Below are positions 54,909 to 55,467 of a stretch of 64,000 bases of DNA, in pieces. Every line of letters begins with the position of its first letter. Position 1 is the stretch's first letter. Origin of the DNA: Eledone cirrhosa (lineage: Eukaryota); NCBI GenBank assembly GCA_964016885.1, contig OZ024745.1, positions 21,142,001 through 21,206,000 on the forward strand, in the 5' to 3' direction. Under the pieces are notes generated by a model, which was given only the letters and a program-made list of their open reading frames with translations, was not told the origin of the DNA and did no database searches. A program made the translations under genes and the position numbers.

Positions 54909-55467
54909 ATACATACATGTATACAGACGTACAGTAGTATGTATATATATATACACACATGCACACATATATATATGTACGTATGGATTCACCGAACATT
55001 TATTATAATGCTCGGTGTGTTTGTAAACAAACATCCCGTATTAAGCCGTAGTGTTCAGCAACCATCGTTGCTCGTTTGTTCAACACTGACAAAGGAACGC
55101 TGTACTAGTTTCAAGCTTATTAGCTATCGTCAGCAACGTATACCTTCCTGCCAGATTGTTGAACGTATATACTTACCTTATGCATATTAACGGCTGAGAA
55201 GCCCAATTTGCATATCGAGTGGGTTAATCGGCCGGGTGCACCGAAACCGGGTGCATCAATACGGGATGTTTGTTTACAAACACACCGAGCATTATAATAA
55301 ATGTTCGGTGAATCCATACGTATATATATATATATGTGTGCATGTGTGTATATATATATACATACTACTGTACGTCTGTATACATGTATGTATGTACGTG
55401 TACATACTTATATTTAAGTAACAGTCTTACTAGAGTGGGAAATGAAATTTCGTTTCATTTTTTCCGT
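54909..55467 (-). mobile_element. Non-autonomous fold-back cassette between (TA)n tracts, with HHR in the loop and a one-sided tail
   Basis: Arms 54909-55042 and 55258-55393 nearly identical in reverse complement; HHR 55097-55139; tail 55394-55467. Confidence 0.7.
55097..55139 (-). ncRNA. Minimal type I hammerhead ribozyme motif
   Basis: Minus strand ACGTTG-CTGACGA-T-AGCT(AATA)AGCT-T-GAAA-CTAG-TA-CAGCGT. Confidence 0.8.

What the first reader, a model, noticed from the sequence alone, without database searches (positions are those of the whole stretch)
54909..55467. MITE-looking inverted repeat that hides an intact minimal hammerhead in its loop
Seen: ~135-bp arms and a 215-nt loop containing ACGUUG-CUGACGA-U-AGCU(AAUA)AGCU-U-GAAA-CUAG-UA-CAGCGU on the minus strand. 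The HHR-bearing strand runs into the arm that is flush with (TA)n, while the inverted arm carries the tail, exactly as in the neighbouring PLE. I saw no sequence similarity to that PLE. Inference: a miniature PLE-type inverted insertion from a different family.
Basis: partly seen in the sequence, partly recalled or inferred. Interest (0 to 1): 0.7.

Follow-up and report, generated by a model that had tools for sequence, protein, structure and literature searches.

The report
Penelope-style inverted insertion carrying full hammerhead
A 559-base mirror-repeat element sitting in a TA microsatellite looks like a small DNA transposon, but it carries a full-size hammerhead ribozyme motif and is likely a retrotransposed RNA that a Penelope-like enzyme wrote in twice, back to back.

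Summary
The anatomy is confirmed: arms 54909-55042 and 55258-55393 (133 of 136 columns identical), a 215-nt loop, and a 74-nt tail before (TA)n. The minus-strand hammerhead is beyond chance (0 of 20,000 shuffles). It is not "minimal". It has the canonical metazoan type I layout: 6-bp helix I, a Schistosoma-like internal loop, a long distal helix, an RNnA loop 2, a U·U pair at the base of helix II and a palindromic tetraloop on helix III. New here: a second element (62536-62945) with different arms has the same inverted-repeat-plus-tail layout and the same ribozyme layout, with 8 of 14 pairs changed on both sides and none broken. Five of nine short inverted repeats in the window are flush with (TA)n at one end and tailed at the other; none is flush at both ends as a MITE would be. 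Best reading: a Penelope-machinery insertion (about 0.8), of a non-coding retrozyme-like RNA (0.5) or of the truncated 3' end of an autonomous element (0.3). No other copy could be reached, Rfam finds no hammerhead here, and cleavage is untested. Verdict: new variant of a known kind.

The parts
54888..54911 (.). (TA)n run flush with the left arm (inferred target); overlaps the first 3 arm bases
54909..55042 (-). Left arm: 3' part of the ribozyme-bearing copy. Twin hairpins at about 54992-55035, then 75 nt of TA/CA-rich sequence
   Evidence: (z -4.2)
55043..55257 (-). Loop: the unique 5' part of the ribozyme-bearing copy; inversion junction at 55257/55258
55078..55164 (-). Type I hammerhead with extended helix I: core C3 at 55133, helix I 55139-55134 with 55102-55097, U·U plus 4-bp helix II, loop AAUA, helix III of 1 bp plus palindromic CUAG, predicted cleavage after 55103
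55258..55393 (+). Right arm: inverted, 5'-truncated second copy, starting 60 nt downstream of the predicted cleavage site
55394..55467 (+). 74-nt one-sided extension (tail) ending in a short hairpin; assignment to the element is inferred
   Evidence: geometry shared with other elements
55468..55648 (.). (TA)n run after the tail
55772..60442 (-). [quoted passage not shown]
62536..62945 (+). Sister element of a different family: 129-bp arms (128 of 129 identical), 24-nt tail, same hammerhead layout (C3 at 62752) with a U4-to-A core change

Best explanation
This 559-bp (TA)n-flanked inverted repeat holds a full-size type I hammerhead motif in its loop, and was likely made when a Penelope-like reverse transcriptase/endonuclease cut a TA microsatellite and copied a short, probably non-coding ribozyme RNA twice, back to back. 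Shown: the two near-identical arms, the one-sided tail, the TA flanks, the ribozyme layout and its covariation with a sister element. Inferred: (1) the sense RNA is the minus strand, at least 423 nt long (loop 215 + arm 134 + tail 74). (2) The enzyme nicks both strands of (TA)n, and each nick primes a cDNA, so both 3' ends point outward. (3) One cDNA starts at the outer initiation site and keeps the tail but stops after 210 nt; the other starts 74 nt further in, lacks the tail and runs 349 nt through the ribozyme. Two internal start sites bounding the tail, and cutting and extension of both strands, were shown in vitro for the anole PLE (PMC11167929). (4) The two 5' ends are joined at 55257/55258. 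(5) In the parent, the ribozyme would cut tandem transcripts into units, probably as a dimer because helix III is 1 bp plus a palindrome; this lone copy is predicted to cleave poorly. The parent is most likely a retrozyme-like non-autonomous element.
For: Ribozyme beyond chance. Distal helix I duplex -20.4 kcal/mol, matched by 4 of 5000 shuffles. Against the sister ribozyme: 28 of 28 cells paired, 8 of 14 pairs changed on both sides, slid registers 27-46% paired, while the sequence outside the ribozyme is not significantly alike (83-447 of 1000 shuffles). This points to selection on RNA structure. Geometry: of 9 short inverted repeats (span under 700 bp, among 16 listed), 5 are within 9 nt of (TA)n at one end and 34-82 nt at the other, and 0 are flush at both; background is 2% within 10 nt and 9-14% within 90 nt. 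The sister's tail end recurs at 993-1030, again flush with (TA)n, so that tail belongs to its element. Inverted copies start 60 nt (query) and 10 nt (sister) downstream of the cleavage site, and inside the ORF in the PLE, so breakpoints differ between families. Inverted truncated copy, tail at either end and (TA)n bias are published PLE traits. Canonical type I ribozymes go with retrozymes and minimal ones with metazoan PLEs. The whole 349-nt strand is strongly structured (z -4.9).
Against: There is only one copy of this family, so ends and breakpoints are untested. Rfam gives no hammerhead match at this locus even at E up to 10; the sister gets 12 bits to Hammerhead_HH9, E 2.3, far below its cut-off. 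There is no tandem repeat here, which is the defining retrozyme arrangement. The tail (74 nt) is longer than the 30-40 nt published. A TA run lies within 90 nt of 9-14% of positions anyway, and the tail starts like a decayed microsatellite edge. The covariation rests on two sequences, and the structure was read from them. No autonomous partner with shared termini was found. U·U-type ribozymes also occur in autonomous PLEs. The hammerhead fold (-22.6 kcal/mol) is less stable than the minimum-energy fold of the same stretch (-29.4).
Confidence: 0.5

Rival explanations
1. Same insertion mechanism, but the template is the mRNA of an autonomous PLE, perhaps of the Hydra clade. This is then just a very short 5'-truncated copy, not a miniature family.
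For: In the Hydra-clade table, 14 of 25 families have U..U flanking helix II (two rows are identical) and 16 of 25 start helix III with ACT and end it with AGT, as here. Nearly all insert in (TA)n, one is from octopus, and one consensus has an inverted truncated copy (PMC8557442 File S1/S2). In two Hydra consensus sequences the stop codon lies roughly 150-180 nt upstream of the core (counted by eye), so the 118 nt present here would not reach an ORF.
Against: 0 of those 25 has a 1-bp helix III with a palindromic tetraloop. Metazoan PLE ribozymes are described as lacking tertiary loops. The listed octopus Hydra ribozyme is different. Both elements with this ribozyme in the window are short and structured throughout.
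Confidence: 0.3
2. A MITE (non-autonomous cut-and-paste DNA transposon) with 134-bp terminal repeats that carries a captured ribozyme fragment; the 'tail' is host microsatellite flank.
For: Near-perfect arms, no coding capacity, TA at both arm ends, and the tail begins with TA/TG-rich bases. O. vulgaris has many recently active TIR families (PMC13282606).
Against: 0 of 9 short inverted repeats are flush at both ends. A second element with different arms carries the same ribozyme with compensatory changes, which would need two independent captures. The sister's tail end recurs flush with (TA)n.
Confidence: 0.1
3. A secondary rearrangement (fold-back repair at a break in a TA array) or an assembly artefact mirrored part of an older simple insertion.
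For: The region is dense in long TA arrays, and such inverted structures trouble assemblies.
Against: The longer tail is on the inverted copy, so it cannot have been copied from the flush arm. The arms differ at two places. The same geometry recurs in five other elements.
Confidence: 0.06
4. A non-autonomous Helitron2/Helentron-type element (terminal and subterminal inverted repeat plus 3' stem-loop) or a DIRS-type element.
For: The repeats are asymmetric and there is a hairpin near the tail end.
Against: HLE2 repeats are 12-16 nt and insert between T and T (PMC11417382); here they are 134 bp in (TA)n. No internal complementary region for DIRS: no loop-to-terminus match was found.
Confidence: 0.04

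Closest known systems
Penelope-like element inverted-pLTR insertions (Penelope/Poseidon, Neptune, Hydra, Naiad; PMC8557442, PMC3846280, PMC11167929)
   Same: Inverted 5'-truncated copy, tail on one end only, (TA)n target, hammerhead about 190-270 nt from the 3' end.
   Different: No ORF; the whole insert is 559 bp; the tail is 74 nt against 30-40 nt published; the ribozyme is full-size; no similarity to the adjacent PLE.
Metazoan non-LTR retrozymes (coral, mussel, axolotl; PMC7229834, bioRxiv 10.64898/2026.07.22.740005)
   Same: Canonical type I hammerhead, a unit of at least 423 nt (published 150-450 bp), GC 37%, strongly structured and non-coding. The U·U base of helix II is as in axolotl HHR_Amex2, and the 1-bp helix III with palindromic tetraloop is as in HHR_Amex1.
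   Different: Single ribozyme in an inverted, tailed insertion rather than a head-to-tail array; circular RNA and cleavage not shown.
Schistosoma mansoni type I hammerhead (PMC2632901)
   Same: Internal loop 1 UCCU:GUAU here against UCCA:GUAC in the paper (6 of 8 positions, last one a pyrimidine); loop 2 ends in A.
   Different: U·U instead of a standard first pair in helix II; 4-nt AAUA loop instead of CAAAUA.
Hydra-clade PLE hammerheads (PMC8557442 File S2)
   Same: CUGANGAU - 4-5-bp helix II - UGAA frame, ACU..AGU helix III, (TA)n targeting.
   Different: Hydra helix III has 3-4 bp and a real loop; here it is a bare palindrome and helix I is long with tertiary-type loops.
MITEs (PMC8969392)
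   Same: Short, non-coding, long inverted repeats.
   Different: Only one arm abuts the target repeat, a covarying ribozyme is kept inside, and no transposase partner was seen.

Membership tests
Canonical metazoan type I hammerhead | Core C3 U4 G5 A6 N7 G8 A9, G12 A13 A14, A15.1-U16.1, H17 | tested here: met
   All present; core definition from PMC3088659
Canonical metazoan type I hammerhead | Helix I 6 bp, helix II about 4 bp, helix III 1-2 bp with palindromic loop | tested here: met
   6 bp; U·U plus 4 bp; 1 bp plus CUAG; definition in PMC4209133
Canonical metazoan type I hammerhead | Loop 1-loop 2 contact motif (5' U and a pyrimidine in loop 1; RNnA loop 2) | tested here: met
   U after helix I, UAU opposite, loop AAUA; all kept in the sister; motif from PMC2632901. 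Sequence match only, contact not shown
Canonical metazoan type I hammerhead | Standard pair 10.1-11.1 | tested here: not met
   U·U. The same variant is reported in active natural hammerheads, so it is filed as a variant
Canonical metazoan type I hammerhead | Rfam hammerhead model score | tested here: not met
   No match at gathering threshold or at E up to 10
Canonical metazoan type I hammerhead | Self-cleavage | not testable with these tools
   Needs an assay
Minimal PLE hammerhead (min-HHR) | Bulged base after A9, G10.1-C11.1, long helix II, 4-5-bp helix I with no defined loop 1 | tested here: not met
   The query lacks these; the neighbouring PLE ribozyme has them (definition)
PLE-type insertion | Inverted 5'-truncated copy at the 5' end | tested here: met
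PLE-type insertion | Tail on one end only, belonging to the element | tested here: inconclusive
   74 nt present; ownership shown only for the sister (two tail ends) and by shared geometry
PLE-type insertion | (TA)n target and hammerhead in the terminal region | tested here: met
PLE-type insertion | Variable 5' truncation and inversion points among copies | not testable with these tools
   No other copy in the window; no eukaryotic genome collection available
Autonomous PLE | RT plus GIY-YIG ORF, or terminal homology to such an element | tested here: not met
   No ORF and no credible match to 76 PLE-related proteins; no DNA match to the neighbour
Non-LTR retrozyme | Head-to-tail repeats with a hammerhead in each unit | tested here: not met
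   One ribozyme, no tandem unit. Solo monomers are reported, so it is called retrozyme-like only
Non-LTR retrozyme | Canonical type I ribozyme, 150-450-bp unit, GC under 50% | tested here: met
   At least 423 nt, GC 37%; true unit length unknown
Non-LTR retrozyme | Expressed as circular RNA | not testable with these tools
   No RNA data
MITE | Inverted repeats at both termini, each next to a target duplication | tested here: inconclusive
   TA occurs at both arm ends, but it is uninformative in this sequence; only the left arm abuts (TA)n
MITE | Fixed ends among copies and a transposase partner with the same termini | not testable with these tools
   Single copy; the arm matches nothing else in the window
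Helitron2/Helentron non-autonomous element | 12-16-nt inverted repeats, T-T insertion site | tested here: not met
   134-bp arms in (TA)n
DIRS | Internal complementary region matching both outer termini | tested here: not met
   No loop-to-terminus match; definition

The most novel reading that the evidence does not exclude
Cephalopod genomes hold a radiation of short non-coding ribozyme elements with a conserved full-size U·U-type hammerhead. They are inserted singly into (TA)n with the complete Penelope footprint (inverted copy, tail) instead of forming tandem arrays, and are mis-filed as MITEs. Their junctions would be direct physical evidence that PLE enzymes mobilise retrozymes in trans, and would record whether ribozyme-cleaved RNA is the template: the sister's inverted copy starts 10 nt from the cleavage site.
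Probability: 0.35. Interest if true: 0.65.

Novelty: new variant of a known kind. Interest (0 to 1): 0.45.

Why it matters
That PLEs mobilise animal retrozymes rests so far on co-occurrence and pLTR similarity (PMC7229834; bioRxiv 10.64898/2026.07.22.740005). A retrozyme-grade ribozyme inside an insertion with PLE-specific ends makes this testable from genome copies alone. Piling up inversion points against the cleavage site would also test whether cleaved RNA is a template in vivo, which the in vitro anole PLE work did not find necessary (PMC11167929). In practice, such elements would be called MITEs or unclassified TIR elements by structure-based annotation. If it is only a truncated PLE, it is ordinary apart from the unusual ribozyme.

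Tried and rejected
Rfam: 0 matches at gathering threshold in 64 kb. At E up to 10 there were only low-complexity miRNA-type matches in 54800-56100 (56 rows) and 3 unrelated matches in the loop. Other copies: none in the window by blastn. A two-sequence covariance model found only its two training sites, with the next best at 12 bits. An exact 29-nt scan of bacterial and archaeal genomes gave 0 hits, which says nothing about an animal repeat. Intron idea: a perfect AG|GTAAGT at 55176 and a pyrimidine tract plus CAG at 55086 would make a 91-nt intron around the ribozyme (65 of 20,000 shuffles; 2 sites in both strands of the window), and Penelope has a 5' UTR intron. However, it was noticed post hoc, the acceptor bases double as the distal helix I, and the sister has C in place of the G; it is kept as a weak lead only. 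Tail as ORF start: the neighbour's tail is open for 28 codons from an ATG at 60361, with weak likeness to homologue N-termini (best 2 and 5 of 300 shuffles among 19 proteins, uncorrected). The query's equivalent peptide shows none (best 74 of 300). A second hammerhead on the plus strand of the loop was not found with up to one core mismatch. Helitron2 and DIRS were rejected as above. No structure prediction or complex job was relevant.

Full report
Setting. The window is AT-rich and crowded with microsatellites. The best protein hit of the neighbouring element is an Octopus vulgaris protein at 69% identity, first of 75 hits, so a cephalopod genome is likely; this is inference. No eukaryotic genome collection was available, so all comparisons are within the 64 kb or with papers.

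1. Observation. The arms are 54909-55042 and 55258-55393, identical at 133 of 136 columns, with 215 nt between them. About 75 arm bases are TA/CA-rich; the other 59 are unique and form twin hairpins (z -4.2 for 54975-55075). The left arm abuts (TA)n, and the right arm is followed by 74 nt and then a 181-nt (TA)n. The motif is exactly as quoted, with C3 at 55133 and predicted cleavage after 55103. Of 20,000 loop shuffles, 96 had the bare core and 0 had core plus helices; 0 of 200 shuffled windows held one as good. Rfam does not recognise it. There is no similarity to the neighbouring PLE.

2. The ribozyme is not minimal. PMC4209133 defines canonical metazoan type I hammerheads as 6-bp helix I, 4-bp helix II, interacting loops and a 1-2-bp helix III with a palindromic loop. 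It defines the minimal PLE type by a bulged base after A9, G10.1-C11.1, a long helix II and a short helix I. The query fits the first, and the neighbour's ribozyme fits the second. Helix I continues past an internal loop for 18 more pairs (distal duplex -20.4 kcal/mol, 4 of 5000 shuffles). The internal loop reads UCCU:GUAU against UCCA:GUAC in the Schistosoma ribozyme, and loop 2 (AAUA) fits the RNnA motif (PMC2632901). The U·U pair at the base of helix II is a known tolerated variant. It is also seen in 14 of 25 Hydra-clade PLE families and in a nematode PLE row, so it does not identify the parent.

3. A sister element. A scan allowing one core mismatch found 4 sites in the window (shuffled mean 0.03 over 60 shuffles): the query, the two PLE copies and a new one at +62752 (0 of 10,000 shuffles of its loop). 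This scan required at least 4 bp in helix II and so left out the site at -62082 found. The new site lies in the loop of another (TA)n-flanked inverted repeat with 129-bp arms and a 24-nt tail. The two ribozymes align without gaps over 52 nt. All 28 cells pair, 8 of 14 pairs changed on both sides, and slid registers pair at only 27-46%. Both loops are kept, and both have a long distal helix I. Outside the ribozyme the sequences are not significantly alike. The sister has U4 changed to A, so that copy is probably inactive. With two sequences, and a structure read from them, this is strong support but not a formal covariation test.

4. Geometry. After masking TA runs, 16 inverted pairs passed the filters (at least 80% identity, at least 25 nt, within 6 kb, 4-mer complexity at least 0.45; the last filter dropped the long PLE pair, which was measured). 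Of the 9 with span under 700 bp, 5 are within 9 nt of (TA)n at one end and 34-82 nt at the other. One is centred on a TA run, one is near a TA run at one end only, two are not within 50 nt of one, and none is flush at both ends. Background rates are 2% within 10 nt and 9-14% within 90 nt; the elements cluster, so they are not independent. The sister's tail end recurs at 993-1030, flush with (TA)n (46 of 48 columns). In the sister the ribozyme strand runs into the tailed arm, the reverse of the query, which agrees with tails at either end in PLEs.

5. Mechanism. Published: PLE insertions carry an inverted truncated copy and a one-sided tail. The anole PLE protein cuts and extends both strands of AT-rich DNA and starts reverse transcription at two internal sites that bound the tail; ribozyme cleavage was not needed in vitro. 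Inferred for this locus: two primings from a cut (TA)n gave a 349-nt copy without tail and a 210-nt inverted copy with tail, joined at their 5' ends. Near-identical arms suggest a recent single event. The ribozyme would serve the parent by cutting multimeric transcripts, probably as a dimer (helix III self-duplex -6.8 kcal/mol). I give PLE-type retro-origin about 0.8: a retrozyme-like non-coding parent 0.5 and a truncated autonomous PLE 0.3. MITE gets 0.1, rearrangement or artefact 0.06, and HLE2 or DIRS 0.04.

6. Membership. It works like a PLE insertion and carries a retrozyme-grade ribozyme. It is not filed as a retrozyme (no tandem array here), as an autonomous PLE (no ORF) or as a min-HHR element.

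7. Novelty. Each ingredient is known. Opposite-strand pairs of minimal hammerheads 100-700 bp apart were already noted in Schistosoma in a discussion of truncated PLEs, and non-autonomous PLEs are known in Chlamydomonas. Searches listed no paper describing a canonical hammerhead element in an inverted, tailed insertion, or cephalopod retrozymes. 'Inverted', 'octopus' and 'cephalopod' do not occur in the main text of PMC7229834, and 'hammerhead' and 'ribozyme' do not occur in the O. vulgaris repeat paper or its supplement. The library omits most subscription papers. The supplement of PMC7229834 could not be read, one file of PMC4209133 was not searched, bioRxiv supplements are closed, and no octopus repeat library or Repbase was on hand; any of these could already hold this family.

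What I saw of each paper. bioRxiv 10.64898/2026.07.22.740005: parts 1-3 of 5. PMC4209133: parts 1-2 of 4 and a supplement search. PMC11167929: parts 1-2 of 4. PMC3846280: parts 1-3 of 5. PMC8557442: passages, section 11, supplement searches and parts 2 and 52 of 59. PMC13282606: part 1 of 3, passages and a supplement search. PMC7229834, PMC3088659, PMC6155905, PMC8969392, PMC2632901 and PMC11417382: passages only.

Verdict. A real feature with the interpretation broadly right and the ribozyme class corrected upward. New variant of a known kind, interest 0.45. The more exciting reading (probability 0.35) needs only a genome-wide copy survey to decide.

Noticed in passing
window 62536-62945: Sister inverted element with the same full-size hammerhead layout (U4-to-A change); its inverted copy starts 10 nt downstream of the predicted cleavage site.
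   Followed up: yes
window 993-1097: Composite insert between two TA runs: the tail end of the 62.7-kb family is joined back to back to the 3' end of a different family, which suggests two different RNAs primed at one cut.
   Followed up: partly
window 1027-1202 and onward: Two 3' ends face each other across one (TA)n. Each ends in a hammerhead-like core whose GAAA runs straight into TATA, as if helix III were made of the TA repeat and the copy ended at a cleavage site.
   Followed up: no
window 55772-60442: Young-looking PLE (arms 99.5% identical) with an Asn-rich stretch ahead of the RT, a CX4CxxC linker before the GIY-YIG-like region (Neptune/Nematis-like by the description; no tree built), and a tail open for 28 codons from an ATG at 60361.
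   Followed up: partly
window 60554-60693, 61772-61891, 62292-62497, 43995-44096: Further short inverted repeats flush with (TA)n at one end; the first three have a 60-82-nt extension at the other. No ribozyme was found in them.
   Followed up: partly
window 61987-62195: Short insert between TA runs with a minus-strand hammerhead (C3 at 62082) whose helix III is a TA palindrome; no inverted arm.
   Followed up: no
window 55649-55670 and 61987-62003: 3' halves of hammerhead-like motifs directly after TA runs, with no matching 5' half found; possibly ribozymes split by insertion into a TA loop.
   Followed up: partly
window 55176-55086 (minus strand): Candidate 91-nt intron enclosing the ribozyme, followed by an ATG at 55065 opening 20 codons; the donor site is not kept in the sister.
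   Followed up: partly
window 31947-35449 (minus strand): LINE with AP-endonuclease and RT/zf-RVT frames; a second 85%-identical piece lies at 37446-38869.
   Followed up: no
window 11100-11410, 25016-25200, 27063-27270, 42214-42813, 48063-48183, 50586-50783, 54071-54255: Dispersed repeat family of about 180 bp, some copies in inverted pairs; SINE-like by recall only, not tested.
   Followed up: no
window 4472-9067, 17276-20822, 21574-22424: Long minisatellite and simple-repeat arrays (36-nt unit x131, TGG-rich tracts, 31-nt unit x27).
   Followed up: no
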